A stretch of 56,637 nt of DNA from a virus. Its lineage: Duplodnaviria; Caudoviricetes. The stretch lies in the IMG/VR virus record IMGVR_UViG_3300030376_006415, positions 1-56,637 of that record, one strand, 5' to 3'. The translations under genes were made by a program, and so were the position numbers. Below, in pieces: positions 4,643 through 27,490 of this stretch (within the stretch, counting starts at the first letter, position 1; each line of letters begins with the position of its first letter). Under the pieces are notes generated by a model. It did not search any database, was not told the DNA's origin, and worked only from the letters and a program-made list of their open reading frames with translations.

Positions 4643-5301
4643 TGATAAATACAAGATCATCAGAGTTAGTGAATAACTTAGAAGATTTTACTTTTCACAT
4701 ATTGGGTTGCGGGGCTATAGGTAGCTCTGCAGCCTTACAAATAGCTAGAATGGGCGCTGATCAATTCTGTCTATATGATATGGATAAAGTAGAAGAAGTA
4801 AATATAGGTGTATCTCAATATACCTTTAACGATGTAGACAAACCTAAAGTAGAAGCATTGCATAATCATCTAATAGAATTAGGTGTTTTCAAAGTGAATA
4901 CATACAATGAGAGATTCTCAGAGTTTTATCCACAGGGAGAGAATGACATTGCTATACTTGGGTTTGATTCTATGTCGTCAAGATTACAAGCAGTAGAGGC
5001 ATTGTTTGGTATACCAGGAGTAAAGCCATTATACATAATTGATGGCCGTATGGGAGCTGAACACTATCAACAATATGTGTTTGATAAACCTACTGTAAGT
5101 AAATACAAAAAGACCTGGTATTCAGATGAGAGTGGTAGCCCAGAGCCTTGCAATGCAAAGGCAACAAGTTATTGTTCTAATCTATCAGGTAGTATGATAG
5201 CAAATACGGTAAGGAAACTCGTTACAGGACAACCATTTAACAGGTCATTTTCGTTTAATTTCCCGACAATGTTATTGGAAAAAACAGTCATGGTGTCGTA
5301 A
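4642..5301 (+). CDS. ThiF/MoeB/E1-family adenylyltransferase
   Basis: GCGAIGS, DMDKVEEVN..Q, K, GFDS, IDGR; candidate catalytic Cys in PEPCNAK. Confidence 0.92.
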   Translation: MINTRSSELVNNLEDFTFHILGCGAIGSSAALQIARMGADQFCLYDMDKVEEVNIGVSQYTFNDVDKPKVEALHNHLIELGVFKVNTYNERFSEFYPQGENDIAILGFDSMSSRLQAVEALFGIPGVKPLYIIDGRMGAEHYQQYVFDKPTVSKYKKTWYSDESGSPEPCNAKATSYCSNLSGSMIANTVRKLVTGQPFNRSFSFNFPTMLLEKTVMVS

Positions 5302-9117: not shown

Positions 9118-9292
9118 AGAGCAAATAGAAAAAGTATTGTTAACTGAAAGAGAGATACTTAATGATAAAGACCATGCTATGACAGAGATAGAATGGGCTA
9201 ATAATGCAGGTTGGATAGAAGCATTAGAATGGGTTTTAGGTAGAACAAAGGTTGGAGAAGATTTCATTTTCATTCCAGAGGAGGAAGTATAA
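9107..9292 (+). CDS. Hypothetical protein
   Basis: GAGG RBS; GWIEALEWVL. Confidence 0.6.
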   Translation: MKNKEQIEKVLLTEREILNDKDHAMTEIEWANNAGWIEALEWVLGRTKVGEDFIFIPEEEV

Positions 9293-9600
9293 TGAATCAA
9301 ATAAGTGAGTGCTGTGACGCTCCTTTGGTTTATCATATCTGGGAAATGGAGAATAAATCAATTGGTTATGAGCCTTGGGATTTCTGTCCAGAATGCTTAG
9401 AGTGTTGCTCTGGTTATGACCCTCAAGATAAAGATAGAATAAAACAATTAACAGAAGGAGCAAACGATGACACAATTAAGCGGGCGAATAAAAGACTTGC
9501 CAAAGACCTTGGTTTTGGACGAAAAGATAATGATGTCGATAGCCAGGATGATAGCATACGTGATGGCTTTCTCTACGGACCACAACAATGCGCCCCCTGA
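9292..9600 (+). CDS. Zinc-ribbon hypothetical protein
   Basis: SECCDAP...CPECLEC. Confidence 0.6.
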   Translation: MNQISECCDAPLVYHIWEMENKSIGYEPWDFCPECLECCSGYDPQDKDRIKQLTEGANDDTIKRANKRLAKDLGFGRKDNDVDSQDDSIRDGFLYGPQQCAP

Positions 9601-13400: not shown

Positions 13401-14081
13401 ATTGCTTTGTGCGTTCTTTAACCTATCAATATATTTATTCGCTAACTGGTATTTGTTATATAGGTAGTCTTTTGTGGTTGCTATAAACTTAGTGCCTAAC
13501 CCACTCTTATCGTGGTTCATCATCTCTACAATAGGATCACCCATTGTATCAGACACTTGAGACATTTTTCTCTTATTCTCTAGCTTGGATTGCTTCTTGT
13601 ATAGCTTGTTTAACCTTGTGTTAATTGCTCGCAAGGTACTTAAATCTAAATCATGCAATGTTCCAAATGGAGTAAATCTATCCTCCATATAGTCCTTTAG
13701 CGCTTCAATCATTGGACCTGGATCCATTTTCATCAAATCATTTGACTTGTAATTTAAAACAGTCTCTTTAATTGTATTCTTAATAAGATCAATAGTCTTT
13801 AGCTTATCCTCATACTCTAAAACATGCTTATTTAATACTTTAATGTTTTTATCAATCTTCTTATTGGCTTGAATAATACGGGATCGTTCTCTAGGGTTAG
13901 ATTTGTATTTATGCATTTTATCTAAATTTGATTGCCTTGTTTCTCTGGCACTTTTTAACGAACCATATAACCTTGTGTCGTCATTAAAATCATCACCAAG
14001 TACAGAATCAACTATATCATATAACTTCTCTTTATACGCCACAATATCAAACTGCTGTATATTACATGCACTCTTTCCCAT
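10410..14081 (-). CDS. Giant internal virion (ejection) protein 3
   Basis: ~1220-aa helical ORF; likely start MGKSAC via TAATG coupling; last gene of the late arm. Confidence 0.6.
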   Translation of the reverse strand: MGKSACNIQQFDIVAYKEKLYDIVDSVLGDDFNDDTRLYGSLKSARETRQSNLDKMHKYKSNPRERSRIIQANKKIDKNIKVLNKHVLEYEDKLKTIDLIKNTIKETVLNYKSNDLMKMDPGPMIEALKDYMEDRFTPFGTLHDLDLSTLRAINTRLNKLYKKQSKLENKRKMSQVSDTMGDPIVEMMNHDKSGLGTKFIATTKDYLYNKYQLANKYIDRLKNAQSNLSHFIHIHKAWMYNVSEGFNERDAIEQSLANTNELVADILDERTRWLKPTPVFILNENGEMVFSKEFEDNKDAIIKAINDDLDHGISEGLHIQKMEPEGINRPIFVVSIKQDANNNDGQEIWLTFEVPSQRIGEKNEYQPERYPLKKDGGALSMSSKRWKFWKEYFKNTARGMGIANMDPNDTSSTLMSEGFHEAVSHTSRTGTATLKGGRKSTYKTSAYYNYRNLPTLPQEQMPREIWDYVNDLRRILKEFYVEIAQRTSNSVDGVNNKLSELVSKGIISNNDKESLLNDLLGIDLDSNMYVKDKKLVHNNQYMGEKENYFPHKRSSADDFQNLLRIENKIYEALQRSAEELEDFDSDNTADPEDITSKEEEYNDILSQYQYIREMILVKTGQKSGYDIANTMKLIDVLKHAKQRTGVISPLPSKELQNDGRRGDFQVLVDYVNNMVDNAAKGELKLKMLDILAIVPGKVKDYLVDHLKATIGRRDARAAFPFFLKSFEYGEKEVSDFAKKLGLNATPEWIYTVLKIPGAIISGNLLGMQSAQRNSWQQVSVWIESSVSTEVEAHEIEQNTPEIKDEIIKQSGVSDLMASIADSLLGSVSGDIEWNSGFFAVKDLLLFNLPQKQFLQKVMSNKSYEKWLVAMESRLGLDEGSLVNDMQNVMNGMYETAHSLRQGTLSKNDIKALEKNTKLRISRALANTWVKWGLEGGWINHLIRASDTRGAYAFSGTEERMRGLAAITGAILAVKLGKVPDEWIKSGKSPYLHPEAIRSARIMVNKTMFGMTPEFYAKFLRGGTGQTFFKFMPYSYMQIMREGKLILGWLDSMKDLSPAEKSKFIWDTMKLSDDPKGSQELKMHRFFYTRVLASAMQAGSSLIPFVGVLNRLTGVFTKGLYGQSGLGRGLESVSVSLILRTLHVIQAAINTSMYDDEEEDKIYQNWLRMWMPMYLNTTIDLLFGESDSMTERAMKGFGLYSRSLRLLSKEISSWTDNPPSMLGD

Positions 14082-17000
14082 TAACAAAGATCCTTATTTA
14101 TAATGTCGACAGATGAAAAACCTGCCTCTTTTAGTCCCTCAAGGTCAGATATATCTAAATCAGAAGAGAAAAACACTGATTCCCATTTCTTACCCCAATT
14201 CTCCATTGCAATATCACTTAGTATGTCTTGGAAAGGGAGAACATTTGCAATATTTTTCTTCCCTATACCACCTATAATAACACTGGTAATAATAGCTCTC
14301 ATCATTCCAGTCTTATTTTGATCACCAGTTTCATGCTTAGTTTCCAGCTCTAGTAATTTAGTATATTCACGCTCTAATAATGCAAGTAGTTTTGGATCAC
14401 GTTGTATAGTGTTGTTATTGTGATTTTTTTCACCTACAATATTATAAAAGCTGGTCATAAAGCCTCTAGCAAAATTTCTAGCAGCCTCATAATCAGACTT
14501 GCTTATAACCTTTCCATAATTTTCCTTTACCCAATCCTTTAAGAAGTTTCTAGCTTTATAGGATGCAACATCAATCCTGCTTTGATCGTAATCATAAGAG
14601 CTCTCAGGAGGATTTTCTCCAAACTTATCTATCATCATCTGATAGGGTAATACAGCATGTCTCTCTTCATATGTCATGTCATTATCATTAACTTCTACGT
14701 CCATTTTTAATGTAGCGCCTGTACTTACTCTATATTCAGCTGTTTCTAGTGCTGCCTTTTTATCAGATGCGCTAGAAGACAAGAAATCATATATCTTCTT
14801 AATATTATCCATTAAGTCAACCTCAGAAAGAGACTGATATAATGCATTCTTACCTTTACGTATATTAGACATATTAAATATCTTAGTTATAGCTAGTCCT
14901 GTGTCAGGCATATGAGAAGAGCCATTTAAAACTTTATAATGCTTTTCTGTTAATAGATCAGGGTCAGATACATTGAACATCCTTTTCATTAGCCATAAAT
15001 TTCCAGACTCATCTTCCATATTAAATCCCCATGACTTAGTAAGCATATTAAGTTTGGGATGGTCAACTGCAGCATTCAGGATTAAATTTAGCTCATGCTC
15101 TACTGTAGTCTTTAGATAATTTACACCATCTATAGTAGTGATTTCAGCAATACCAGACCAACCTAAATCCCTTAATGTTTTTTCATTAACCCCTGCCTTA
15201 AGTGGAGCATAATCCATTACAACCTTTTGAGTTTTCTTTTTGGGAGTTAGCTCTACTTCATTCACTCTTCCACCTTCAGTCTCAAGGAAAATAGTTATTT
15301 TCTTAATATGATGAGCTATATTATTTGTCAAATTCTTTAAATTAGTCATTCTACCTTGAGCATTATGCCCTGCAATAGTAGTAACCATATCAGACAGCAT
15401 AGACATATTATCGCTTAAGGCAGCAGGTTCAGGAATATCAAATACTCCGAGATCAGCAGATGCCTGCATACTTCTTTGGAATATATTGCTAAATTGAAAC
15501 TTCCATAAGGTATCTATATCATATTTGCTAGGTATTATCATTACACCTGCTTCATCAATATCAAAATCGCCTACGAGTCTTATCCCAACGTCTAAAGGGT
15601 GATGATAAATAGCATTCCCATCATCTCTCTGTGTAAACTCTACTATTCTTCTTGGAGCAATAGAGTCCAACTTCAAAATTGGAGATCTATAAGTTAAAAC
15701 ATGAGTAGGATTCTCCCTAAGCCATTGATTAACAAGGGCCACAGAAGGAACACCTTCTTTCATACCCATTAAATCAACTATATGATTATATATAGCCTTA
15801 TTACCAGATGACAGTATAACTCCTTCAGGCATACCAGCCTCATTATCAATTTCATTATTCTCATTTACTAATTGTATCTTGTCACCAAGGTAAGGCTTTA
15901 AGAAGTAATCAGATCCAGCAGTATCTACAGTATTATTATTTCCATCACCAGAACCCCTATAACTTCTCCCTTGCATTGAGCCCCTAAGGATCTGGTTATT
16001 CAAAAGCATTCTTCTGATTGGGTATAGGCTATCAGGGTGATGTATACCATAGCCTTTTCTGGCTAATAATTTATTTCTAACATTCTCTCTTCCCTGGGAC
16101 TTCTCAGAATACATATAACCAACTATAGATCGCAATAGATCAGGGTCTTCAGCAGCATCTATCCATGAGTTAATATATTTTGAAGATTCATTCTCAATCA
16201 TATCATATATAATATCAGCATACTCTTTTAATGAATCTTTATCCTGCTTATTATAACCCATTAAATGTAATGCATTCAGATATTGTATAGGTCCATATAC
16301 GTCCATATTTGATTGTGTTGAAGGAGCTATAATAACCCTCCTTGCACTCTCTGGTAACTCAAAAGAAGTATTAACTTTATAATCCCCATAGAAAGTTTTT
16401 GCACCATCTGTATCTGTCACCATATCTATAACCTCTCCATTGTTATATATGACAATCTCATCTTTAACTTTCTTTGTAGTAACAATTACATTATCTGGAT
16501 TTCTTCTGGATTTACCTTTTTTAACAATCTCTAGGTTATTATATGCTTCTTGTTCTGAATGCTTAAATTCTACATAACTATTCATATCATCTGAAATATT
16601 CATAAGCACAGTTTTAAGCTCTCTAGGAGCGTGATCGTTACTATACTTCTGTTCAAGACCAAGAGCCATATCTGAGGTATTCTTAAGAAGCCTAGTAGAA
16701 ACCATTGACAGACCATCAAGCAAGTTTGTCTTTCCAGTTAAGCCACGTAAAGTTTTAATATTATCTACCTTTTTACCATCTATATAAAAATCTACCTTGC
16801 TGGGGTCTATAATAATATGCTTAGTAGGGCCTACGCCAACTGGAACATATCCATCCGTTACAGATAACCTCATTCTGTTAAAGGTGTGTAGAGAATTGTA
16901 TTTTAAATACTGGTTGCCTCTTACAGCCTTATACCATTCATGCTTTGCTACTAATGCTATTGCATTTAAATAAGGAGGGTACATCATTTGATTTGTTTTT

Positions 17001-18388
17001 GGATTTCTTGGAACATCTAGTATATTCTTAAGGAAATTATCTATATCCTTATCCTCCATGAATACACCATTTTTCCTTTCCTGTAATAAATATTTCTTGG
17101 TGTTATTAGTGGCTATCGTAGTAATCAGTACATGGAAATTATTGAATGACTGCCTAGCGTCAGGAGTAAGTTTCCCCCGTTTCTTCATCATCATCATTCT
17201 ATCTTTAAGTTTTCTATAGTATATAGATGCATTAAATTTACTGTCTTCAAAATCCTTTATGAATCTTTCAGAGAATTTATTAGGCTGCTTTTTCATAGCT
17301 TCAATCAAACTGCTCTTGCTCAATACAGTATCAACATGCCCTTGTTGTATTTCTACTCCAAGCATATTGCCCTTATCACTTGCAGACATACCTACCAGAG
17401 CGACACCCTCATTAACAAGAAAATCAGTAAATAACTCTAAAAGCTCTAGCATTTTTATATTACCAGCATCCTCCCTTGCCCACCAGCTATTTGTCTTTCT
17501 ATTATGAATAACCTTGAATATCTTGTTTAGACCAAAATAATGCGTTATATCACCTACATTCTTTCCTCTAACTTTTGTTTTAAGATTGTCTATAAAGTTC
17601 TTATTTGCTCTTAATGAGAGTTTATTCTGTGTTAGAAGATTAACTGGATTACCTTCAGAGTCAACTACAGTATGCTCCCTTTTGAAATATTTTGTCCATC
17701 GACCCTTACCAGCACCACCTGCCATATTTTGAAAGTTAGCATAAACCCAAGAAAGTTTATCTTTTAGTGGTAAGGAATTAACCTCCTGATTTACTATCCA
17801 TAGCTTTTTTAATGGAGCTAAGTTATCGCCAAAATCTGCACCTTGATCTAAAGCCCAGTTCGAAAAATCTTCCCATGATAACTCTCTAGCGCTCTGGTAT
17901 ACTTTAGCCATCTTAGACTCATCGATCATTACACCTAAAGCCCCAAACCAAATAGCATTAAATTGGTCTGAGCCTAACCATGAGAATATTCCCTGATCAA
18001 CTTCTTTTTCTGGGTTCCAATTATGGCTTCCTCCGGTCTCATCAGCATCAGTTAAGGTTTCATTATCTACTCTTGCTTTAGCCGTCCTAAAGGGGCTTGA
18101 AAGACTTGATATAGGTATACTAGAAACAATATCACCGACCAATGCAGGATCTTGTGGCACATGAGTTACGACATCGAGTACATCTTCCCCATATATACTT
18201 CTTATTGCTTCTTGTATATCAGCAACCCATTCAGGGTTCTTTCCCTTAACACTATTAATCAAATGGTATAATATAGGATTTCTAGACCCCCCTTTAGGCC
18301 CTTCCTCGGCCTGGCTAACATAATCCTTAACCCAATCCTTAAGCTCTTTAATATCTTGAGCATTAGTTAAATTGCAATTACCACGCAT
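14081..18388 (-). CDS. Virion-packaged two-barrel RNA polymerase (crAss gp66-like, RNAi-polymerase-related)
   Basis: GDFDID (15554-15571), YRSP, LDG..VS, KHS and AAVDHPK motifs in the expected order. Confidence 0.8.
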   Translation of the reverse strand: MRGNCNLTNAQDIKELKDWVKDYVSQAEEGPKGGSRNPILYHLINSVKGKNPEWVADIQEAIRSIYGEDVLDVVTHVPQDPALVGDIVSSIPISSLSSPFRTAKARVDNETLTDADETGGSHNWNPEKEVDQGIFSWLGSDQFNAIWFGALGVMIDESKMAKVYQSARELSWEDFSNWALDQGADFGDNLAPLKKLWIVNQEVNSLPLKDKLSWVYANFQNMAGGAGKGRWTKYFKREHTVVDSEGNPVNLLTQNKLSLRANKNFIDNLKTKVRGKNVGDITHYFGLNKIFKVIHNRKTNSWWAREDAGNIKMLELLELFTDFLVNEGVALVGMSASDKGNMLGVEIQQGHVDTVLSKSSLIEAMKKQPNKFSERFIKDFEDSKFNASIYYRKLKDRMMMMKKRGKLTPDARQSFNNFHVLITTIATNNTKKYLLQERKNGVFMEDKDIDNFLKNILDVPRNPKTNQMMYPPYLNAIALVAKHEWYKAVRGNQYLKYNSLHTFNRMRLSVTDGYVPVGVGPTKHIIIDPSKVDFYIDGKKVDNIKTLRGLTGKTNLLDGLSMVSTRLLKNTSDMALGLEQKYSNDHAPRELKTVLMNISDDMNSYVEFKHSEQEAYNNLEIVKKGKSRRNPDNVIVTTKKVKDEIVIYNNGEVIDMVTDTDGAKTFYGDYKVNTSFELPESARRVIIAPSTQSNMDVYGPIQYLNALHLMGYNKQDKDSLKEYADIIYDMIENESSKYINSWIDAAEDPDLLRSIVGYMYSEKSQGRENVRNKLLARKGYGIHHPDSLYPIRRMLLNNQILRGSMQGRSYRGSGDGNNNTVDTAGSDYFLKPYLGDKIQLVNENNEIDNEAGMPEGVILSSGNKAIYNHIVDLMGMKEGVPSVALVNQWLRENPTHVLTYRSPILKLDSIAPRRIVEFTQRDDGNAIYHHPLDVGIRLVGDFDIDEAGVMIIPSKYDIDTLWKFQFSNIFQRSMQASADLGVFDIPEPAALSDNMSMLSDMVTTIAGHNAQGRMTNLKNLTNNIAHHIKKITIFLETEGGRVNEVELTPKKKTQKVVMDYAPLKAGVNEKTLRDLGWSGIAEITTIDGVNYLKTTVEHELNLILNAAVDHPKLNMLTKSWGFNMEDESGNLWLMKRMFNVSDPDLLTEKHYKVLNGSSHMPDTGLAITKIFNMSNIRKGKNALYQSLSEVDLMDNIKKIYDFLSSSASDKKAALETAEYRVSTGATLKMDVEVNDNDMTYEERHAVLPYQMMIDKFGENPPESSYDYDQSRIDVASYKARNFLKDWVKENYGKVISKSDYEAARNFARGFMTSFYNIVGEKNHNNNTIQRDPKLLALLEREYTKLLELETKHETGDQNKTGMMRAIITSVIIGGIGKKNIANVLPFQDILSDIAMENWGKKWESVFFSSDLDISDLEGLKEAGFSSVDIINKDLC

Positions 18389-21300
18389 TAAATTATATCC
18401 TCTCTACAATTCTTTTTCTTTTCATTTAGCTCATTACTCATATCTTCTGATATTATTTTAGACCCTTCAGAATTATCTGCTAAAGGATCGTCAATCTGAT
18501 TAATAATCTGATCAGCTTCAGTCTTTTCCAAAGATTCACCAGCATCTAATGCATCATTAGATGTATAATCAGTGATGCTCTGTGGTTGAATATCTTCTAG
18601 AACAATTTTCTCAAGGACACTTGCCTCTTGTATAGCAGCGTCTAGAAATTTCTCTCGACCAGAATAAGGTATAAATCTATTATAATCTATTATATCTTTA
18701 TACCTACTATAATTTAATTTTGCTTCAAATGGCTTTTCAAAATGAGATAATTCAACCTCTTGAACTTCGCCCTTAGAATCAATATATTTATGCCTTATAG
18801 TTTTTCTTTCATCTTTGCCATCATATTCCGTGAAGAAATCAACTAATATGCCTTCTTCACCAGTTTTAACTTCTCTCTCATCCTCAATCTTTCCACCTTC
18901 CCCAATATCATATTCTAATTTATATGTACCTACAATATAACCTGTCTCATTAACAATCTCATACGATATAATTTTATTTCCCTGTACATCTGTATCGCCT
19001 TCAATTATTCTTCTTTTTATATTTTTTACTTTAAAGCCTGGTCCTGGGATAATCCATGTATGGGTATTGTCGGATCCCTTATTGCTATCAAAGTCATAAG
19101 CTAACACTGCATTAGGGAAGTTTTCTAACATCCATGCATCACCCTCTTCTATAGTCATTGAGCTAACCATATCTAAATCATGTACTAAGTTCCCTGCTTT
19201 TCTATATACTGTCCCCTGTGTTGCATAAGCTATAGAGCCTGTTAGAAATAACTTAGCATTAGTAATTAGCTTTTCATATACCCACATTGCTGTAGGATTC
19301 TCATTGAAGGCTTTTTGAAAATTGACCCTATCATAGCCTTCTCGCTTTGTAAGGCGAACAAAATCTTTCCCAGCCATAGTGTTAGACACTACATCTTCTA
19401 CTACCTCATTAAGTTTTTTCCAATTAGATTCACCTACCATCTGCTTGACTGTTTTAACCTGGCCCTTAATCCACTTAATTACCTTATTCCATCTAGATTT
19501 ATCTTTATCACCCTTTATACCAAGTGTCTCTATAAATGCTTTCCCAAATTTAGCCTTCAATAACTCATAAAAGATTTTCTTTGCAACCTTCCTCTGACCC
19601 TTAAATCCTCTTTTGTCTTCAGGGAGCTTCTGTAGCTCAGCTTTAAAGTACTCTGTCTCTTTAACTATTTTAAGAACCTTATAAAAATTATCTGAATAAG
19701 CTAGCATTTCACTTAAATAAGCAGCTGTGGATTCAGTAATGCCTTCTAAGCTATTGGGGTCAACAGCAGCCATCTTACCGGGAAGGTTAATAAATGCCTC
19801 TATAGTCTCAGAAGACTTGTTGATTGTTATGCCAAATTGCTTAAAGAACGTCTGTATTGGTTCAAATATCTTTGATTCAACGTCTGTTAATTCATTATCT
19901 GGAATTTCCTCAGAGGGATCAACTAGAGTAGGTTCATTGTATGCATCCATTAGTTGAGCGAGAGTTTGGTCACCACCTTCTTCTTTAGTTGTTAATATCT
20001 CATTAATGTCTGACAACAAATCACCAATTTCTGGGTCTGACTCTAGAATATTCATAAACTTAACTTGACTGCCAACAATTTCCTTTAATCTGCTTCGGAG
20101 GCCTTTTATACGCCCTATGTCATCCTTAGGGCCACCATCTTTAGCGAATTTTTTAATAGCTTTATGTATGTCTCTTACTTCTGAGATTTCACTAGAAAGA
20201 TCATCAGCTTTCTTGTCGGACTTCTTGGTACCTTTGGGCTTATCTTTTATAGATGTTTCCTGCTTTTCGGTTATAATCGGAGTACCAGATGGTGCTTTTG
20301 AGGGCCCTGAAGTACCCTTAACGGACGTAATTATCTGCTGTATAGCCTTAGCCTTATCTTGAGGTTTTCCCGTCTTTAAAAGCGATTCTACGTCTAAACC
20401 TATAGATTTGGCAGCCTTGTTGATCTCAGTATTACTCTTCTTTAATAATGCTTTAGTTATACCTTGTACGCCACCTTTAGATTTGAGTGTATTTTTAACT
20501 GTATTAATAATAGGATTTGCCACAGGGGAAACGTCTTGCTTCTTTGTATTATCCTTGGATTGATTTTTCTTTCTGCCCTGGTAAGCTTGTGCACGGCTTT
20601 GTTGTTGCTCATCTTGATCCATATGCGCTTGAGCTTGTGCAGACTCTTTACGCTGATTTGTATTCAATTGCCTATCAGACTCTCTTAATTTAGACTCTAT
20701 TTTAACCTCAGCTGACTTTAGATCCTTGTTAAGCTGAGCCTCTAATTGGGCCATCTTAGCGTCACTAGCTTTTGCGTCTAACGCTTTAATATTATCTATA
20801 TTGTCTACGATATTTGAAATCTTCTCAATGGTTTTTGGACTAGACACTCCTAATTTCCTAGCTCTCTTTAGGAGATCTTCCTTCATAGATATTTTTATTT
20901 TTCTCCCAATCCATGATTTAACCTCTGTAATCGCATCTGCATCCTCAAGCCCAGCCTCTTTAAATAAATCCTCAATAAGTTTTCCGGAAGGATCTTTTTT
21001 GATATAATGTTTATAGGCTTGAGTTAACATCTCTCCAATATTACCACCTTTGCTCTTTCCATAGGTAAGCAGAATTTTTCCAATTACCCCAAGTTCCCCA
21101 TGCTTTCTTGCATCATATTGCTTATGTAATATCCCTGCAAAGTTTTTACCCTTACCGCCTTCACTCATACTGCCAAAAGCACCTTGCTGCCTTAATAACA
21201 ACTTAAATCCTAATGCGTCATTGTTGATGATGCTTTCTGGTCCTTCATATTCAAAGCTTCCATTGGCACTATTATTTATTAACGCACTAATTGCAGATGC

Positions 21301-22950
21301 CTCTTTTTTACTTCCAACATTAATCACATCACCGTCAGGAGTAACTATAGTATCATTCTTAGGTTTAAAAGCCCTATAGGTTGAGCCTATGCTTGCTGAT
21401 GCTAATTTAGGTCCACCAAAGCCTATGAATGCACTACCAAAAGAGTTCCATGTTTCTGGGTCGTTCCATATATCCTTCCATGTACCTGTTTGGCTTAAAC
21501 CATCCATAATGCTTTTAAGGTATGACTCGCCATCTACCAGACTCTCACTAGTAGCTTCATGTAGTATTTTTTGAGATGCATACTGAAGGGATTCTACAAC
21601 GCCTTCCATCGCTTGCTCCATAATAAATGCAGCACCTTTAGCACCCTTACTTCCGCGTCCAGCAAACTTGCGAACAAAACCTTTAGTAAACTCCCTTAAC
21701 ATAGATTTATCTTTACGCATATAACTTAATACGGAGTTTAACTGTAAGGGTTCTAAAACAGCCCCAGATACAACTGAATATGCAAACATTCCATTCTGTG
21801 CAAGTGAGGCAATATCCTCATAGGAATATCCTTCGCTCATTAAATCGTTTACAATCTCTTTATGATAACTTCCACCTTCCATAGCCATCATCATAGGCAT
21901 GCTAAGATAATTACTAGCTACAAAAGCTGCATCTCCAGCCCAATTAGCACCAGTGCTTATGGCCTGTAAGCTTTTAGCCTTGCTGAGCCCGCTGACCAAT
22001 GAAGTAGTTTTAAGAGCTGCACCACCCAATTTAAAGGCAACCCCTGGTGTCATTGCAGCAGCTAAAGAAGGACCTATTTCAGCAACTGTCTTAAACGTCA
22101 TATTCCAAGGATCATCCCAATAATTTTGCCATGTTAAATTACCATGCTCATCTTCACTCATTAAAGGATTTGCTTGAGCCCAATTAGCATAGGCTCTTAA
22201 GTTGGGATCGTTTCTCATTACTTCTGCGGTCTCAATCTCTACCCTATCCATGAAATCTTGAGTTTGTATCATTGCATCTTGATATGCGCTATACTTATCT
22301 GTTTCGAGTTCAGATACATGCTTTTCAATATTCGCCAACGACTCTTTAGAGATCAGGCTTACATTAGAAGGTATGCCTTCTCTTTCACGAAAGGTTCTTT
22401 TAGCCTCCTCAGTAGGACTATAAATATTTTTTTCTGTATAAAAAGAGGAAGGAGCTTTTCCTTTGTATCCAAACAATTCATGCTTTCTAAAGAAGTTCTC
22501 AATTTTTTCTGCACTAAACATGGGGGTTTCTGCAGTCAAAGTAGGGTCTTCATACCTTAGATGATTCCATTCCATCATCATCTGACTTTCAACTAATTGC
22601 TCTCTTGATCCTTCAAGGCTTTCAAATTGCCATCTTTTAAGTGCTTCATTTGCTGTAAGTAAATATTCTGGAGGACCATGAAGGATAGCCTCTTTCCATT
22701 TATTGACACTCCACCTAACGTCATCCATAAGAGATGGATCATAGTTTTCGTTAGGATCTGGAGCTTTATAATCTGGGGCATAAGGCCAATTAGGGTTATT
22801 GTTAGCGCTTATTAATACTTTTTTTGTTCCATCAGGATCAATAGCATATCTATCTTTTATTATCTCATCATCAGTCCAATACTCATCATATAGACCAGGA
22901 TGTGCATTACGCATAAGATCACCAAATTCTGGATCTGTATATTGATTCAT
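18388..22950 (-). CDS. Giant internal virion protein 1 with a C-terminal Pol-beta-type nucleotidyltransferase domain
   Basis: Gly/Ala hydrophobic segments; LTGSIA..HDLD, VDFF, RYKD. Confidence 0.6.
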   Translation of the reverse strand: MNQYTDPEFGDLMRNAHPGLYDEYWTDDEIIKDRYAIDPDGTKKVLISANNNPNWPYAPDYKAPDPNENYDPSLMDDVRWSVNKWKEAILHGPPEYLLTANEALKRWQFESLEGSREQLVESQMMMEWNHLRYEDPTLTAETPMFSAEKIENFFRKHELFGYKGKAPSSFYTEKNIYSPTEEAKRTFREREGIPSNVSLISKESLANIEKHVSELETDKYSAYQDAMIQTQDFMDRVEIETAEVMRNDPNLRAYANWAQANPLMSEDEHGNLTWQNYWDDPWNMTFKTVAEIGPSLAAAMTPGVAFKLGGAALKTTSLVSGLSKAKSLQAISTGANWAGDAAFVASNYLSMPMMMAMEGGSYHKEIVNDLMSEGYSYEDIASLAQNGMFAYSVVSGAVLEPLQLNSVLSYMRKDKSMLREFTKGFVRKFAGRGSKGAKGAAFIMEQAMEGVVESLQYASQKILHEATSESLVDGESYLKSIMDGLSQTGTWKDIWNDPETWNSFGSAFIGFGGPKLASASIGSTYRAFKPKNDTIVTPDGDVINVGSKKEASAISALINNSANGSFEYEGPESIINNDALGFKLLLRQQGAFGSMSEGGKGKNFAGILHKQYDARKHGELGVIGKILLTYGKSKGGNIGEMLTQAYKHYIKKDPSGKLIEDLFKEAGLEDADAITEVKSWIGRKIKISMKEDLLKRARKLGVSSPKTIEKISNIVDNIDNIKALDAKASDAKMAQLEAQLNKDLKSAEVKIESKLRESDRQLNTNQRKESAQAQAHMDQDEQQQSRAQAYQGRKKNQSKDNTKKQDVSPVANPIINTVKNTLKSKGGVQGITKALLKKSNTEINKAAKSIGLDVESLLKTGKPQDKAKAIQQIITSVKGTSGPSKAPSGTPIITEKQETSIKDKPKGTKKSDKKADDLSSEISEVRDIHKAIKKFAKDGGPKDDIGRIKGLRSRLKEIVGSQVKFMNILESDPEIGDLLSDINEILTTKEEGGDQTLAQLMDAYNEPTLVDPSEEIPDNELTDVESKIFEPIQTFFKQFGITINKSSETIEAFINLPGKMAAVDPNSLEGITESTAAYLSEMLAYSDNFYKVLKIVKETEYFKAELQKLPEDKRGFKGQRKVAKKIFYELLKAKFGKAFIETLGIKGDKDKSRWNKVIKWIKGQVKTVKQMVGESNWKKLNEVVEDVVSNTMAGKDFVRLTKREGYDRVNFQKAFNENPTAMWVYEKLITNAKLFLTGSIAYATQGTVYRKAGNLVHDLDMVSSMTIEEGDAWMLENFPNAVLAYDFDSNKGSDNTHTWIIPGPGFKVKNIKRRIIEGDTDVQGNKIISYEIVNETGYIVGTYKLEYDIGEGGKIEDEREVKTGEEGILVDFFTEYDGKDERKTIRHKYIDSKGEVQEVELSHFEKPFEAKLNYSRYKDIIDYNRFIPYSGREKFLDAAIQEASVLEKIVLEDIQPQSITDYTSNDALDAGESLEKTEADQIINQIDDPLADNSEGSKIISEDMSNELNEKKKNCREDII

Positions 22951-22961
22951 TCCCTACCCTT

Positions 22962-24557
22962 TTATCTTTGAAACATTAAATTGCCACTGCCGTAGATAGG
23001 ACCGTTAGAGGGACCGTATACAAACTCTTCCATATGTGCTTCAGCATCATTCAGGAAGGTATTCGTGCTTAAATAAGTTCCTATAATCCTTGGAATCAAT
23101 TCAGCAGCTGTAATATTAGTTTGTCTCTCAAGCAAAGAGTCTTTAAATATTGCCCAGCCCTCTGTAGTTAATTTCTCCATATCAAAATACTTATGCCCAT
23201 TATTTCCTTCCCTAAAGAAATCCATTACATCTTTATCGGTAATATCTCTAACTGATTTATTTGATGAGCTTGCAAGTATTCTTTTAAACTTACTTGCCTT
23301 TTCGGCTGGAGACATAGCATTCCAATCTGAAATCGTAACATCTGCAACTGTAGTTCCGCTAGAATCTACCCTGGTTATCATTGTCTTTAACGTAGAGTTT
23401 TCTAATATCTTACCAATATTATCATTAACAGTATTTCTTTGATCCCTAATATTTTCTAAGCCTTCAAATTTTTGGTCCGATCTTAAAGGTGTTAAGAAAG
23501 GCAATATTGACACGTCAGGATCTGTAGCGGTTTTCTTAACATATAGGAATTGATTAATCTCATCCAATCTAGTCTCATATGCCTGATTCATTATCGCAAA
23601 TTGTCTAACAGGCTCACTTTTCAGGCCATCCTCATAAGAGTCTTTAGCGCTATCATAATCACCCCATTCAGCATATCTATTAGATGCTGCAAAGTCAGGG
23701 TTACCTGTTTGCAATTTAAAGCTCTCGGTAAGTTGACCATCCTCATCTATCTCACCTTTCTCTAATTGCTCGTCAAACATAGCTAAAGATTGGATTATAT
23801 TCTTAGAAAGATTTTTCTTATTGGTTGCGATATCAGCAGCTACACGATTCTTATAATTTATATCAAGCTCTGCCTTCATAACGAAATCTTCAAACATATC
23901 AAGAGACTTTAATGCTAGAGTCCCTTCATGCTTTAAGAGATGACTCCATGCGTTTTGTAAGTGTACATCCTGAGAGTACCATTCTTGAAAGTCTTCATCA
24001 TCTGGGTGAAAAGGGTCCAATTTAAATGTTGTAGGGTCTTTATCGTAATTCCTTATTCTGCTCTGCACTTCAATTAAATTGAGAATATCTTGATCTTTTT
24101 TAACAAAGTTCTCGTATAATGCATCATCGGTATGCCCTCTTGCCCCAACCATAACCGTATTTAATTCTGATCGTACATCCTCAAGGTCACTAGACTCCCA
24201 TTCCCCACTTTTTAAAAGCTTATCTAATGCTTCTTCAGTTTCTACTCCCTTTGCTTTGAGATTAGTAGTCCACTTCCAATTATTCTCACTATCTACTAAG
24301 TGATCATGAAGATTAATAATGTTAAATCTTTGTTCTTCAGAGAGTCCGTCATCCTGATTTAACTTCTTTAGCATTAATTGGGCTTGACCAAATTCCTCTT
24401 CAGTATTGAATTTACTTGCATTCATAACAACTTCTTGGACGTTAGAATATAACTGTTGAGACTCTCTAGTTTTAGCGTTCTGAACAGACTTCATTAAATC
24501 ATCAAGAGCCGATATAGCTGATCCAAGCCCAGAATCATAATTTTTATTTCTAGCCAT
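22962..24557 (-). CDS. Putative internal virion protein
   Basis: Helical, Cys-free, in the ejection block. Confidence 0.5.
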   Translation of the reverse strand: MARNKNYDSGLGSAISALDDLMKSVQNAKTRESQQLYSNVQEVVMNASKFNTEEEFGQAQLMLKKLNQDDGLSEEQRFNIINLHDHLVDSENNWKWTTNLKAKGVETEEALDKLLKSGEWESSDLEDVRSELNTVMVGARGHTDDALYENFVKKDQDILNLIEVQSRIRNYDKDPTTFKLDPFHPDDEDFQEWYSQDVHLQNAWSHLLKHEGTLALKSLDMFEDFVMKAELDINYKNRVAADIATNKKNLSKNIIQSLAMFDEQLEKGEIDEDGQLTESFKLQTGNPDFAASNRYAEWGDYDSAKDSYEDGLKSEPVRQFAIMNQAYETRLDEINQFLYVKKTATDPDVSILPFLTPLRSDQKFEGLENIRDQRNTVNDNIGKILENSTLKTMITRVDSSGTTVADVTISDWNAMSPAEKASKFKRILASSSNKSVRDITDKDVMDFFREGNNGHKYFDMEKLTTEGWAIFKDSLLERQTNITAAELIPRIIGTYLSTNTFLNDAEAHMEEFVYGPSNGPIYGSGNLMFQR

Positions 24558-25649
24558 TTAAGCCCCCTGTTGTATCATAGTCATAATATCATATTGCTCC
24601 GCTAACCATGAATCATATGCATTGGCGAAGTTCATAACTGAATCTGATTGCGTTTTTAAATACCCTCCACCTAATGAATCTGTCATGGCTTTATGAGTAG
24701 ATACTGCTGGATTAATAAGGTTCATATATTCCGACCCTAATTGTGAAGTATCTCCGGTCCAATTCTCAAGCGCACTATATCCTCCATCATCAAGAGTATC
24801 CCATGCATTAGCCTCTTGAGGAACTCCATACTTTCTATCTAGGCTACCCTCTGCTATTTTATTCTTAGCTGAAGTATAAGCCCTTACCTGATTGGCAGCT
24901 GCTATCTTGGATTCTGTCTCTGCAACAGCCTTTGTTAATGGAGTACTCCTTTGTCCTGGGAATCCATACAACCCCTCATCAGCATATGCTTTATTTATCT
25001 GTAATAGTGCTTCATTTACAGCTCTTTGTTGTGAGAATGTATTTAATTTCTTTTCTGTTTGAGACTGCAACATAAGGTTATCCCTCTCCCTTTGGCTCTT
25101 ACCATCCAGATACTCAAGATTATTAAGTAATCCCTTTCTTAGATGGTTACTTTTCAATTCATGCAGTTGTTGTTGAGTCCCCCACTCACTCCAGTCTTGA
25201 CTAGTTTCAGACTGCCATTCGCTAAACTGAGCGCTTTCTATAAATGGAGTAAATGCTCCTATATTTTCACTTACCCACTGACCTTGATTAAAATTATCTG
25301 ATTCATTATCCGACGGTGTATGCGAAAGGAAAGGGTCTGCTGACCCAAATGCAAATTCTTCAAATCCACCACCTAAAACAGTGTCAGAGTAGGCATTTCC
25401 ACCTGTTCCCATTAGGTTCCAATTTTCCCACATTTGCTCTTCAGTCCACCCTGATTCTCCTAAACCTGCCAGTAGAGCTTGAGTATCTTCTTGATATAAA
25501 GTACCATCTGAATCAGTATAGGTGCCACTGACAATGGGTATGTTTGACCAACTTCCTACATCCCAATCAGTATTTCCCATAGTTTCACTAGCCCAACCAG
25601 CATCCTGGCCAAGAACTTGTTCCCACCAATTTAATTCTTGACTATCCAT
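24558..25649 (-). CDS. Acidic putative internal virion protein
   Basis: W/G/S/D-rich with a helical middle. Confidence 0.45.
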   Translation of the reverse strand: MDSQELNWWEQVLGQDAGWASETMGNTDWDVGSWSNIPIVSGTYTDSDGTLYQEDTQALLAGLGESGWTEEQMWENWNLMGTGGNAYSDTVLGGGFEEFAFGSADPFLSHTPSDNESDNFNQGQWVSENIGAFTPFIESAQFSEWQSETSQDWSEWGTQQQLHELKSNHLRKGLLNNLEYLDGKSQRERDNLMLQSQTEKKLNTFSQQRAVNEALLQINKAYADEGLYGFPGQRSTPLTKAVAETESKIAAANQVRAYTSAKNKIAEGSLDRKYGVPQEANAWDTLDDGGYSALENWTGDTSQLGSEYMNLINPAVSTHKAMTDSLGGGYLKTQSDSVMNFANAYDSWLAEQYDIMTMIQQGA

Positions 25650-25651
25650 TA

Positions 25652-26776
25652 CTATCCTCCTGTACTCGGGTTAAGGGACCATGTAAACTCTTCTTCTTCA
25701 AAACTATCCCAATTAGTGTCAGGATCATCAAGAACATAAGTGCTCCCCTGATATTCCCCTAGAGAAAACTCTAGATCGTTAAACCAATCCTGTGTCATTC
25801 CAAAGGCTGTATCTTCAAAGTCTGAAATAAACGAGTCAATCTGTCCTTGACTGGTAATGCCTGCTGACCCTACAGCAAAATCATAATTATCACTCAATGT
25901 GTTCTGTTGACTCTCATAGCCTGCTAATAAATCTTCTAGCTGAGTCATATAATTTGTTGATGTTGAATATGATTGAGCACCTATACCCATTAATTCATTT
26001 TTTAAATTCTCTGAGGTAAGCTCATAATTCCTTCTCGCTCTTGAATTAGTTGCAAAACCTGTATTGCCAGCTCTTCGGGTTAATTGATTTAAGCCCGGAG
26101 CTCCCGTTCTATGCAAGTTTCGTTTTTCGGTCTCAAAAGAAGCAAGCGCATTAGCTTTATCAGTTAACAATATGTCTTCATTCTCAAGATACATATCATC
26201 TAAATTTTGTGCATCAAATGCAAAGTCAGTATTTATATCCGTCATCTGCTGAATATAATTTTGGTATGTGCTAGAAATTCCAGTAGCAGCCTGAAAAGCA
26301 GCATTAGAATAAGAGTTTGGCTCACCTAGCCCACCAGATCCGCCTGCCCAGGGAGCTGTTGACATATATAAGTCAATCACCGACCCGACCCCCTCTTCAA
26401 ATTGTTGATAGCCTGAAGAATCAAATCCTCCTGTCCCCCATGTCTGTTGCCATTCATTGAATGTCAGTCCAGTTTGGTCAGTATTCTGCAATCCATACTC
26501 AAATAAATCCTCCAGAAAGCTATCACTTTGTTCTGTAACCCCTCCCTCACCTGATGAATACCAAGATCCAGGTGGTTCTGTAGGGTCCCACATATCACCC
26601 CATGAACCTCCAGATATACCGCCTAATAATTGCGATTGAAGCCAATCTACATCAGTGTATAATGCGGAAGAACCTCCAGTGGTAGTATCATCAAAATAGC
26701 CACCTTGAGTAAGGTCAATATTCTCAAGACCTGAAAAGTCTATACTAAAATCAAATGGGTTATTGTATTCGGGCAT
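25652..26776 (-). CDS. Acidic putative internal virion protein
   Basis: Very acidic, G/S-rich. Confidence 0.45.
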   Translation of the reverse strand: MPEYNNPFDFSIDFSGLENIDLTQGGYFDDTTTGGSSALYTDVDWLQSQLLGGISGGSWGDMWDPTEPPGSWYSSGEGGVTEQSDSFLEDLFEYGLQNTDQTGLTFNEWQQTWGTGGFDSSGYQQFEEGVGSVIDLYMSTAPWAGGSGGLGEPNSYSNAAFQAATGISSTYQNYIQQMTDINTDFAFDAQNLDDMYLENEDILLTDKANALASFETEKRNLHRTGAPGLNQLTRRAGNTGFATNSRARRNYELTSENLKNELMGIGAQSYSTSTNYMTQLEDLLAGYESQQNTLSDNYDFAVGSAGITSQGQIDSFISDFEDTAFGMTQDWFNDLEFSLGEYQGSTYVLDDPDTNWDSFEEEEFTWSLNPSTGG

Positions 26777-26785
26777 TCTTTATCC

Positions 26786-27490
26786 TTAAGTAATAGGGTT
26801 GCCTAAATCAACCACAGTAGTGTAATTATCTGGGCTCCCCACAAAGCTTCCAACACCGTATCCTTTAGCCGAACTGGTAATGGTCTGAGTTATAGTATCA
26901 AATATAATTTGCTCATAAGTCCCATAGTCATCAATTTGGTCTTGAAAATCTGTTATCCAACTCTCTGCCTCTCGTGCTTTAGCGTCACCCCTTTCCTCTT
27001 GTACATTCTCCCATGAAGGATCATAAAGCTTTGAAAACTTTCTTTGGTAGTCGCTGATATCAAAGTCAAAGTCTCTCAACTGATTTGCAGCTTTCTGAAT
27101 CTGCGGTTTATATTCATCAGCGATATTTTCTAATTGTTGCTTATCATGATATTCCTCTGCACCTTCTTCTATCTCTTGAAGCCCTGCATATGTTCCAAGC
27201 GCTATAGCTAAGCTAGATCCACCTGTGATAGGGGCCAATATAACCCCGGCACCAATAGCTAAGATTGCCTGGCCTGCTTCCCACCACCAATCCTGCTCAT
27301 TCTTTAAAGCATCTGTTTCAGCATCGTCTTGCTCCTTCTTTAAGTCTGATCCAGCCCGCCACAGTGCAGCGTATTCATCCTCTAATTCATCTTTTGCATC
27401 TTTTAATTCTCTTGTTGCAGCAGCATATTGAGCGCCAATAATCGCTCTTGCTTTTGATTTACCTGATCTGTTACTTTGATAAGTTGCCAT
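26786..27490 (-). CDS. Putative ejection/pilot protein
   Basis: Hydrophobic hairpin AILAIGAGVILAPITGGSSLAIALG flanked by coiled coils. Confidence 0.5.
   Translation of the reverse strand: MATYQSNRSGKSKARAIIGAQYAAATRELKDAKDELEDEYAALWRAGSDLKKEQDDAETDALKNEQDWWWEAGQAILAIGAGVILAPITGGSSLAIALGTYAGLQEIEEGAEEYHDKQQLENIADEYKPQIQKAANQLRDFDFDISDYQRKFSKLYDPSWENVQEERGDAKAREAESWITDFQDQIDDYGTYEQIIFDTITQTITSSAKGYGVGSFVGSPDNYTTVVDLGNPIT

What the first reader, a model, noticed from the sequence alone, without database searches (positions are those of the whole stretch)
14064..18408. The only cysteines of three giant ejection proteins sit at adjoining termini: possible head-to-tail covalent chain
Seen: by my reading the ~4180 residues of the three giants contain just four Cys. 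Protein 1 ends KKNCREDII (18406-18408), the RNAP starts MRGNC (18374-18376) and ends KDLC (14084-14086), and protein 3 starts MGKSAC (14064-14066). The free outer ends have none, and both junctions are TAATG-coupled. Inference: C-to-N disulfides or metal bridges link the proteins in gene order for stoichiometric packaging and ordered ejection, and are released in the reducing cytoplasm.
Basis: partly seen in the sequence, partly recalled or inferred. Interest (0 to 1): 0.75.

Follow-up and report, generated by a model that had tools for sequence, protein, structure and literature searches.

The report
Terminal cysteines chain giant phage proteins
Three giant proteins of this marine phage, with its particle-borne RNA polymerase in the middle, have no cysteine except one at each end that faces the next protein, a rule kept by distant relatives and crAss-like gut phages, so the proteins are probably tied end to end by disulfide bonds.

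Summary
The three minus-strand giants (1520, 1435 and 1223 aa) hold exactly four Cys, at the stated codons, all at the two facing junctions.

It is not chance. In 49 related loci, 49 of 53 distinct adjacent long-ORF pairs have a Cys on both facing ends, 3 on neither, and none has a C-end Cys without a partner. Among 88 RNA-polymerase-domain proteins of at least 1300 aa, 104 of 115 Cys are terminal. Where genes are fused, the pair is gone.

Eight GenBank Crassvirales-type phage genomes follow the rule, cultured phi14:2 and crAss001 among them. In crAss001 the first partner lies on the opposite strand, so the constraint acts on the proteins.

P2 is a two-barrel virion RNA polymerase of the crAss type: it has the DxDxD motif and its best fold match is 6VR4.

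A direct precedent exists in an unrelated phage. Cryo-EM of cyanopodophage A4 shows a disulfide between Cys1715 of gp27 and Cys5 of gp26 (PMC12002296).

Best reading (about 0.7): head-to-tail disulfides join P1, P2 and P3. The chemistry is untested here.

This scan had already noted the same rule on other DNA, in at least 52 genomes. My literature searches found no report of the general rule.

The parts
18388..22950 (-). P1, first giant (1520 aa). Its sole Cys is residue 1515, five residues from the C-end. The C-terminal ~70 residues are acidic and poorly conserved.
18406..18408 (-). Cys codon (TGT) at the C-end of P1
14081..18388 (-). P2, middle giant (1435 aa), a two-barrel virion RNA polymerase of the crAss type. 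Its only Cys are residue 5 and the last residue.
18374..18376 (-). Cys codon (TGC), residue 5 of P2
15554..15568 (-). Invariant D941-x-D943-x-D945 (VGD[FHY]DIDEAG), the candidate catalytic metal-binding motif of P2. Coordinates were computed from the residue numbers.
   Evidence: invariant columns; the same D[FYH]DxD motif occurs in phi14:2 g066 and crAss001 gp50
14084..14086 (-). Cys codon (TGT), last residue of P2
10410..14081 (-). P3, last giant (1223 aa from the ATG at 14079-14081). Its sole Cys is residue 6.
14064..14066 (-). Cys codon (TGT), residue 6 of P3
22962..27490 (-). Four Cys-free ORFs (531, 363, 374 and 234 aa) directly upstream of P1. They are probably further internal or ejected virion proteins and are not part of the Cys chain.
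   Evidence: the equivalent ORFs in relatives are also Cys-free
18631..19860 (-). Conserved ~400-aa domain inside P1 (residues ~1031-1440), shared at ~40% identity with giants of other phage groups. It is a weak candidate for a Pol-beta-type nucleotidyltransferase.

Best explanation
P1, P2 (the virion RNA polymerase) and P3 are internal virion proteins that are delivered into the host. Each junction of the chain carries one Cys on a short tail: 0-7 residues remain after the C-end Cys, and the N-end Cys sits at residue 3-8 (range over the window's own family).

Inside the particle, the C-end Cys of P1 pairs with Cys5 of P2, and the last residue of P2 pairs with Cys6 of P3. These two heterotypic disulfides make one covalent, unbranched P1-P2-P3 thread of about 4180 residues. 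This is the post-translational equivalent of the single-gene giants seen in relatives.

All other Cys are purged, so no wrong or branching cross-link can form in proteins that must pass a narrow channel.

Shown here:
- the Cys pattern;
- its conservation;
- its strict tie to gene breaks;
- its independence from gene adjacency.

Shown by others, in an unrelated phage: such a disulfide exists in a virion.

Inferred: that the link here is a disulfide, that it forms after assembly or release, that it fixes 1:1:1 stoichiometry and the order of exit, and that host cytoplasmic reductants cut it.
For: (1) Window: 4 Cys in 4178 residues, all at the two junctions. See the chance figures.

(2) P2 homologues: 11 of 11 proteins at 25-100% identity have exactly two Cys, at residues 3-8 and within the last 0-3 residues. 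In their alignment, the only invariant residues before position 152 are M1 and C5. The only invariant residue after S1174 is C1435.

(3) Window family: all 14 clusters (below 80% identity in P2) show the pattern of P1 C-end, P2 both ends, P3 N-end. One apparent exception (L002 type) was resolved by a GTG start.

(4) Systematic count over 49 loci: 53 distinct adjacent long-ORF pairs, of which 49 have Cys on both facing ends, 3 on neither and 1 on the downstream side only. None has a C-end Cys without a downstream partner.

(5) Fusions lose the pair.
- In G002 the P1-like domain and the RNAP are in one ORF of about 2790 aa. Its only Cys is the last residue, and the next gene has Cys4 only.
- Among 88 RNAP-domain representatives of at least 1300 aa (150 listed of 214 hits; 62 shorter ones dropped), 53 carry an N-terminal extension. 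Of these, 0 of 53 have an N-end Cys and 52 of 53 have a C-end Cys.
- The 2 representatives with more than 900 aa after the RNAP domain have no Cys in 7305 residues.
- Overall 104 of 115 Cys in 192,571 residues are terminal.

(6) The outer ends are free. By my tally of the listings, 1 of 17 complete first giants has an N-end Cys, and 0 of 33 complete last giants have a C-end Cys.

(7) Eight GenBank Crassvirales-type genomes (isolates and metagenome assemblies) follow the rule at 12 of 12 junctions. Two of these need a corrected start or gene model. In crAss001, gp47 (C-end Cys) lies on the opposite strand from gp50 (Cys5 and a C-end Cys) and gp49 (Cys5). Translational coupling or junction RNA signals therefore cannot explain the pattern.

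(8) The giants evolve fast (P2 25-31% identical) while the neighbouring ThiF-like gene is 62-77% identical in the same loci. The Cys nonetheless stay.

(9) Precedent: cryo-EM of cyanopodophage A4 shows a disulfide between Cys1715 of gp27 and Cys5 of gp26 in the pre-ejectosome (PMC12002296, passages read). In the A-4L genome these are the sole Cys of two adjacent genes of 1717 and 1114 aa.

(10) crAss001 virions do contain structural disulfides, between tail hub and ring proteins (PMC10172136, passages).
Against: No chemistry was tested here, and the link could be of another kind.

Assembly takes place in a reducing cytoplasm. None of the 45 window ORFs scanned against Pfam matched a thioredoxin, Erv or Dsb family at E <= 0.01. 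Gut Crassvirales live in anoxic habitats.

The A4 proteins show no profile homology to P1, P2 or P3, so the precedent is by analogy.

The window family's profiles also fail to hit the Crassvirales giants. The shared rule may therefore be convergent or very old.

Some terminal Cys have no adjacent-gene partner:
- p-crAssphage gp47;
- crAss002 gp30;
- Cys3 of the first giant of G001.

Of 33 short-type RNAP representatives, 13 lack an N-end Cys, and their context is unknown; some may be truncated gene calls.

In gut phages the purge of internal Cys is looser: IAS gp056 has 10 Cys.
Confidence: 0.7

Rival explanations
1. The facing Cys are joined through a bound metal ion (a thiolate bridge) rather than a disulfide. 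Such a link could form in the reducing cytoplasm during assembly.
For: It avoids the problem of oxidation in the cytoplasm. It fits the same pairing statistics.
Against: Each junction offers only two thiols. No His, Asp or further Cys is conserved next to them in the terminal alignments. Two-giant systems have two Cys in all and single giants have none, so one four-Cys metal or Fe-S node joining all termini is excluded as a general design. The one solved case is a disulfide.
Confidence: 0.08
2. The Cys do form disulfides, but with other partners. P2 could be closed on itself (Cys5 to Cys1435) with P1 tied to P3. Alternatively each terminus could pair with the same terminus of a second copy, giving homodimers.
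For: Counting Cys in a three-protein system cannot tell these pairings apart. [quoted passage not shown]
Against: Two-protein systems have only one C-end Cys and one N-end Cys, on neighbouring proteins. By parsimony, the RNAP C-end pairs with the next protein's N-end everywhere, which leaves P1 C-end with P2 N-end. Homotypic pairing gives no reason why a C-end Cys never occurs without an N-end Cys on the next protein (0 of 53 pairs), nor why the outer ends are free. The A4 bond is heterotypic and head to tail.
Confidence: 0.08
3. The terminal Cys do not link the proteins to each other. They would serve another purpose, for instance attachment to the portal or capsid, a reaction with host periplasmic thiol-disulfide enzymes during entry, or some other modification of the termini.
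For: A few terminal Cys lack an adjacent partner. Suppression of Cys in ejected proteins has been explained by passage through the periplasm (PMC11445570, passages).
Against: This does not explain why the Cys come in facing pairs, why both vanish together on fusion, or why first N-ends and last C-ends are free.
Confidence: 0.1
4. The pattern is chance, or a by-product of nucleotide signals at overlapping TAATG junctions.
For: Both window junctions are TAATG overlaps.
Against: The probabilities are about 1e-9 for the window alone. The pattern is conserved across 14 clusters and 88 representatives. The Cys offsets vary. The rule holds for crAss001 gp47 and gp50, which lie on opposite strands.
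Confidence: 0.01

Closest known systems
Cyanopodophage A4 (Anabaena phage A-4L) ejection proteins gp27 and gp26: disulfide Cys1715-Cys5 in the pre-ejectosome (PNAS 2025, PMC12002296; passages read)
   Same: Two adjacent giant internal proteins lie at the end of the structural module. The upstream one has its sole Cys two residues from the C-end, and the downstream one has its sole Cys at residue 5. The gene layout is also alike: Erf and a PD-(D/E)XK or Cas4-type nuclease converge on the giant genes.
   Different: There is no detectable sequence homology. A4 has one link, while the window has two in series with an RNA polymerase in the middle. The passages read do not mention an RNA polymerase in A4 (0 occurrences), nor any general rule or link to gene fusion.
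Virion RNA polymerase block of Crassvirales: phi14:2 g067/g066/g065 (structure 6VR4) and crAss001 cargo proteins gp47/gp50/gp49
   Same: There are three giant proteins with a two-barrel RNAP carrying D[FYH]DxD in the middle; they are reported as virion proteins in phi14:2 and crAss001. The best fold match of the P2 core is 6vr4_A. The terminal Cys pattern is identical.
   Different: The window family's profiles do not hit these proteins, and tblastn of P2 finds nothing in 50,697 phage records. The window's genome is about 57 kb, with a P22-type portal and an SU10-type capsid protein. The papers I checked do not mention the Cys. The phi14:2 preprint has 0 occurrences of cysteine or disulfide. 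The crAss001 atlas reports disulfides only in the tail hub.
Schitoviridae giant virion RNA polymerase (N4 gp50, DEV gp71)
   Same: It is a giant ejected polymerase with conserved suppression of Cys (PMC11445570, passages). It has three parts with the polymerase in the middle (recalled for N4). The window's chain would recreate such a single thread.
   Different: It is one gene and one chain, with no Cys at all. Its polymerase is of the single-subunit T7 type (recalled), whereas P2 matches two-barrel enzymes.
T7 internal core proteins gp14, gp15 and gp16
   Same: They are ejected internal proteins encoded at the same place in a podovirus structural module, and they are nearly Cys-free: 1 Cys in 2261 residues.
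   Different: They have no facing terminal Cys pairs. The only Cys is residue 2 of gp14.

Membership tests
crAss-type two-barrel virion RNA polymerase (phi14:2 gp66-like) | Catalytic D-x-D-x-D motif (DFDID in gp66) | tested here: met
   D941, D943 and D945 are invariant within VGD[FHY]DIDEAG in 11 of 11 homologues. phi14:2 g066 has DFDID at residue 1361 and crAss001 gp50 has DFDVD at 1483.
crAss-type two-barrel virion RNA polymerase (phi14:2 gp66-like) | Two-barrel fold like 6VR4, bacterial beta-prime and QDE-1 | tested here: inconclusive
   The model of the core has mean pLDDT 66.8. The top Foldseek PDB hit is 6vr4_A (E 1.2e-5, prob 1.00), followed by beta-prime subunits and QDE-1, but TM-scores are low (0.25 or less).
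crAss-type two-barrel virion RNA polymerase (phi14:2 gp66-like) | Sequence homology to Crassvirales polymerases | tested here: not met
   tblastn of P2 against phages found no match. The HMM of the P2 core gave no hit at E <= 1 against crAss001, phi14:2, Fpv1, p-crAssphage or cr50_1 giants.
crAss-type two-barrel virion RNA polymerase (phi14:2 gp66-like) | Packaged in the virion and flanked by two giant partner proteins | not testable with these tools
   The flanking giants are present. Packaging needs virion proteomics, and the phage is uncultured.
Head-to-tail disulfide-linked ejection proteins (A4 gp27-gp26 type) | The upstream protein's Cys lies within a few residues of the C-end, the downstream protein's Cys near residue 5, with no other Cys | tested here: met
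   for the window. for A-4L (gp27: 1717 aa, Cys1715 only; gp26: 1114 aa, Cys5 only).
Head-to-tail disulfide-linked ejection proteins (A4 gp27-gp26 type) | Disulfide present in the virion | not testable with these tools
   This needs non-reducing gels, mass spectrometry or cryo-EM of particles.
Head-to-tail disulfide-linked ejection proteins (A4 gp27-gp26 type) | Sequence homology to A4 gp27 or gp26 | tested here: not met
   hmmsearch with the profiles of P2, the P2 core, P3 and the P1 domain against A-4L gp25-gp29 gave no hit at E <= 10.
Schitoviridae N4 gp50-type virion RNA polymerase | One polypeptide of about 3500 aa with a single-subunit (T7-like) polymerase domain | tested here: not met
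   There are three genes. The fold matches are two-barrel enzymes. The single-subunit nature of N4 gp50 is recalled.

The most novel reading that the evidence does not exclude
Split giant ejection proteins are re-joined after translation into one redox-cleavable protein thread. This would hold across crAss-like phages, the window's marine family and at least one unrelated podophage lineage. Terminal disulfides would substitute for gene fusion, so that more than 4000 residues, including the RNA polymerase, leave the capsid as a single unbranched chain in fixed order and 1:1:1 ratio. Reduction in the host cytoplasm would both release the subunits and act as the compartment signal that switches the polymerase on.
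Probability: 0.35. Interest if true: 0.9.

Novelty: new variant of a known kind. Interest (0 to 1): 0.8.

Why it matters
Crassvirales include the most abundant viruses of the human gut. How their huge cargo proteins, the RNA polymerase among them, are packed in fixed amounts and delivered in order is an open question (PMC10172136, passages).

A conserved covalent head-to-tail tether would give a simple physical answer. It would also explain why these proteins appear as one, two or three genes in different phages.

The idea is testable at once. phi14:2 and crAss001 are cultured and already have virion proteomics and structures. A reducing versus non-reducing gel, or cross-link mass spectrometry, would settle it.

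The rule is also a practical annotation aid:
- It marks true gene starts (GTG starts, and mis-called starts in crAss002 and IAS virus).
- It identifies chain partners that lie on the other strand.
- It flags ejected proteins in uncultured phages with no detectable homology.

Tried and rejected
Complex prediction on P2 residues 1136-1435 with P3 residues 1-300, each with its own alignment, returned 'no answer' (score 0.03 against a mark of 0.32). It is not used for or against binding.

Searches for the three giants that found nothing:
- Pfam and PHROGs.
- tblastn of P2 and of the P1 domain against 50,697 phage records.
- A single-sequence scan of viral contigs.
- Genome contigs.
- A profile search of the PDB by sequence, which gave only one spurious weak hit.

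Readings considered and rejected:
- A single four-Cys Zn or Fe-S node joining all termini was rejected, because two-giant systems have two Cys and single giants have none.
- Peptide ligation or an intein-like origin was considered and dropped. The Cys offsets vary, no intein-like domain was found by Pfam, and fused forms show no Cys remnant at the corresponding internal position.
- The single 4466-aa giant of G004 has one Cys, at 1434. It lies upstream of the P1-like domain and not at a junction.
- I looked for a phage-encoded thiol oxidase or thioredoxin in the window and found none in 45 ORFs.

I tried to find genomic context for short-type RNAP proteins that lack an N-end Cys (alignment A5). 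The scan returned only fused-type loci, so that prediction stays untested.

Supplements of the papers were not available. The A4 and crAss001 supplements may hold gels or alignments that bear on this.
Full report
**Observation.** The window is a whole virus record of 56,637 bases. Three adjacent minus-strand ORFs encode proteins of 1520 aa (P1, 18388..22950), 1435 aa (P2, 14081..18388) and 1223 aa (P3, ATG at 14079-14081, ending at 10410).

Translation gives exactly four Cys in 4178 residues:
- P1 residue 1515 (codon 18406-18408);
- P2 residue 5 (18374-18376);
- P2 residue 1435, its last (14084-14086);
- P3 residue 6 (14064-14066).

Both junctions are TAATG overlaps. Thirty-one other ORFs of the window hold 0.8% Cys. 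The chance of 4 or fewer Cys in the trio at that rate is 2e-10. The chance that four random Cys all lie within 8 residues of the inner termini is 3e-9. The four ORFs upstream of P1 (1502 aa) have no Cys.

**What the genes are.** Pfam and PHROGs do not recognise the giants. P2 and the P1 domain have no tblastn match in 50,697 phage records.

The rest of the window reads as a podovirus-like phage:
- P22-type portal, SU10-type capsid protein and adaptor, and large and small terminase;
- an Erf recombinase, a DnaB/primase-polymerase protein and a PD-(D/E)XK nuclease;
- a JAB plus ThiF-like gene pair.

The giants lie at the far end of the structural module.

P2 homologues share an invariant VGD[FHY]DIDEAG motif. 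A model of the P2 core has mean pLDDT 66.8. Its best PDB match is 6vr4_A, the virion RNA polymerase of crAss-like phage phi14:2 (E 1.2e-5). Bacterial beta-prime subunits and QDE-1 follow, but TM-scores are low. P2 is therefore most likely a two-barrel virion RNA polymerase. Sequence profiles of the window family do not reach the Crassvirales enzymes.

**Conservation within the family.** A search of 5.8 billion proteins with P2 gave 11 proteins at 25-100% identity. All 11 have exactly two Cys, at residues 3-8 and within the last 0-3 residues. In their alignment the only invariant residues before position 152 are M1 and C5. The only invariant residue after S1174 is C1435.

P1 and P3 homologues keep their single terminal Cys. 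One P3 relative has an extra Cys at 360.

Scans of viral and metagenome contigs gave 27 loci, all from marine or aquatic metagenomes by their names. These fall into 14 clusters below 80% identity in P2. Every cluster shows the pattern of P1 C-end, P2 both ends and P3 N-end. The only extra Cys is residue 20 of P2 in L024. One apparent exception, P3 of the L002 type, starts at a GTG that overlaps the end of P2 and reads MAC....

In the same loci the ThiF-like gene is 62-77% identical while P2 is 25-31% identical. The Cys thus persist against fast divergence.

**Natural experiments: fusions and splits.** A ~400-aa domain of P1 is shared at about 40% identity with giants of other phage groups. I used it as a probe and obtained 15 distinct loci with other architectures:
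- L054 has a complete 4685-aa protein whose only Cys is one residue from the end. The next protein, 1581 aa, has its only Cys at residue 3.
- L048 has three proteins in series, with Cys at each of the two junctions.
- In G002 the contig ends overlap by 127 nt. The P1-like domain and an RNAP-like region (profile E 7e-14) sit in one ORF of about 2790 aa whose only Cys is the last residue. The next gene has Cys4 only.

A further scan gave seven loci of this fused type, and all conform. One of them has a GTG start.

A script over 49 loci found 53 distinct adjacent long-ORF pairs:
- 49 have a Cys on both facing ends;
- 3 have a Cys on neither end (a Cys-free protein preceding P1);
- 1 has a Cys on the downstream side only (a small Cys-rich ORF after the last giant);
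- none has a C-end Cys without a partner.

One pair (L046) was not counted because of a 562-nt gap, yet it also has both Cys.

By my tally of the listings, 1 of 17 complete first giants has an N-end Cys (G001, with no partner found). None of 33 complete last giants has a C-end Cys.

**Breadth.** A profile of the RNAP core was searched against 1.84 billion representative proteins. It gave 214 hits at E <= 1e-3, of which the best 150 were listed. I dropped 62 proteins shorter than 1300 aa as likely fragments.

The remaining 88 hold 115 Cys in 192,571 residues. Of these Cys, 104 lie in the first 12 or last 11 residues. By type:
- The 53 proteins with a long N-terminal extension have no N-end Cys (0 of 53) and a C-end Cys in 52 of 53.
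- The 33 short-type proteins have a C-end Cys in 32 and an N-end Cys in 20.
- The two proteins with more than 900 residues after the polymerase domain have no Cys in 7305 residues.

The number of Cys pairs therefore tracks the number of breaks in the chain.

**Crassvirales-type genomes in GenBank.** All eight genomes examined follow the rule:
- phi14:2: g067 (1797 aa) has its sole Cys as the last residue. The RNAP g066 (2180 aa) has Cys3 and Cys2179 only. g065 (1421 aa) has Cys3 only.
- crAss001: gp47 has its sole Cys two residues from the end. gp50 has Cys5, one internal Cys and a Cys eight residues from the end. gp49 has Cys5 only. gp47 lies on the opposite strand from gp50 and gp49.
- p-crAssphage, crAss002, Flavobacterium phage Fpv1, DAC17, IAS virus and cr50_1 also conform.

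That makes 12 of 12 junctions. Two of them require a corrected gene model: crAss002 gp33 would start at Met33, and IAS gp055 and gp056 would be one gene.

The purge of internal Cys is looser in gut phages. T7 gp14-16 are nearly Cys-free but have no facing pairs.

**Published knowledge.**
- Suppression of Cys in the ejection proteins of Schitoviridae is described, and is attributed to passage through the periplasm (PMC11445570, passages).
- The phi14:2 preprint does not mention cysteine or disulfide.
- The crAss001 atlas reports disulfides only between tail hub and ring proteins.
- Five full-text searches found no report of a terminal-Cys rule.

A look-up of this scan's earlier notes showed that the same rule had already been noted in at least 52 other genomes. 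It also pointed to PMC12002296. I read the relevant passages. Cryo-EM of cyanopodophage A4 shows the C-terminal helix of gp27 inserted into gp26 and held by a disulfide between Cys1715 and Cys5. A further search confirmed this as the only paper holding both 'pre-ejectosome' and 'disulfide'.

In the A-4L genome, gp27 (1717 aa) and gp26 (1114 aa) are adjacent, and these are their only Cys. They show no profile homology to P1, P2 or P3.

**Mechanism.** The best-supported reading is that two heterotypic head-to-tail disulfides join P1, P2 and P3 into one unbranched thread.

The pairing follows from parsimony. In two-protein systems the only possible heterotypic pair is the RNAP protein's C-end with the next protein's N-end. 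In three-protein systems this leaves the P1 C-end for the P2 N-end.

The short overhangs beyond each Cys keep the joint slim. Among the 88 representatives, 0-6 residues follow the C-end Cys and the N-end Cys sits at residue 3-8.

The lack of other Cys prevents wrong links in proteins that must unfold or thread through the tail.

The following remain inferences:
- formation after assembly or release;
- a fixed 1:1:1 ratio;
- ordered exit;
- cleavage by cytoplasmic reductants.

Points against are listed under the best explanation. In brief, there is no chemistry here, no oxidase gene was found, gut phages live in anoxic habitats, a few terminal Cys are unpaired, and the precedent rests on analogy.

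**Rivals.** I considered four: a metal bridge, other pairings, a non-linking role, and chance. Their weights are 0.08, 0.08, 0.10 and 0.01.

**Verdict.** The window's trio is a new, sequence-divergent three-link case of a kind shown once by structure (A4). The general rule across crAss-like phages appears to be unpublished. It can be tested directly in cultured phages.

Noticed in passing
window 18631-19860 (-), P1 residues ~1031-1440: This ~400-aa domain is about 40% identical to parts of giants in otherwise unrelated phage contigs, while the rest of P1 is barely conserved. It has a G-S ... D-x-D pattern. A model (pLDDT 70.8) gives only weak fold matches, all to Pol-beta-type nucleotidyltransferases such as TdT, TM1012 and TglT (E >= 0.01). 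It may be an ejected nucleotidyltransferase.
   Followed up: partly
window 3707-5301 (+): An adjacent Prok-JAB and ThiF (E1-like) gene pair. ThiF is 62-77% identical across relatives whose giants are only 25-31% identical. crAss001 has a ThiF homologue (30% identity, gp76) next to a metalloprotease (gp77).
   Followed up: partly
window 22962-27490 (-): Four consecutive ORFs (1502 aa) have no Cys at all. The equivalent ORFs upstream of P1 in relatives are also Cys-free. They are probably further internal or ejected proteins.
   Followed up: partly
L002 14538 and L069 3595: The last giant starts at a GTG overlapping the end of the preceding gene. An ATG-only gene call loses the N-terminal Cys and about 40-60 residues.
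   Followed up: yes
L058 (crAss002 gp33) and L063 (IAS virus gp055/gp056): The Cys rule suggests that two annotations are off. crAss002 gp33 probably starts at Met33 (MSC...). IAS gp055 and gp056 overlap, contain ambiguous residues, and are probably one RNAP gene.
   Followed up: partly
L057 (p-crAssphage gp47), L058 (crAss002 gp30), G001 first giant: Three terminal Cys have no partner on the adjacent gene. Two smaller cargo-like proteins have a sole Cys 1 and 7 residues from the C-end. A 4573-aa giant has Cys3 with no upstream C-end Cys found; that record is 53% complete.
   Followed up: partly
L029 + L037 (record G002): The contig ends overlap by 127 nt with one mismatch, and the ~2790-aa giant ORF runs across the ends. 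The record is listed as linear but is circularly permuted or terminally redundant.
   Followed up: yes
L031 4790-18190 (record G004): A single 4466-aa ORF has one Cys (residue 1434) and no adjoining giant. It may be a fully fused form, although the RNAP profile did not detect a polymerase domain in it.
   Followed up: partly
window 29519-34918 (-), 36665-37786 (-) and 9292-9600 (+): A 1799-aa ORF with 19 Cys and a 373-aa ORF with a Laminin_G_3 lectin domain are likely external tail fibre or adhesin proteins, in contrast to the Cys-free internal proteins. A 102-aa ORF with 7 Cys has no Pfam match.
   Followed up: no
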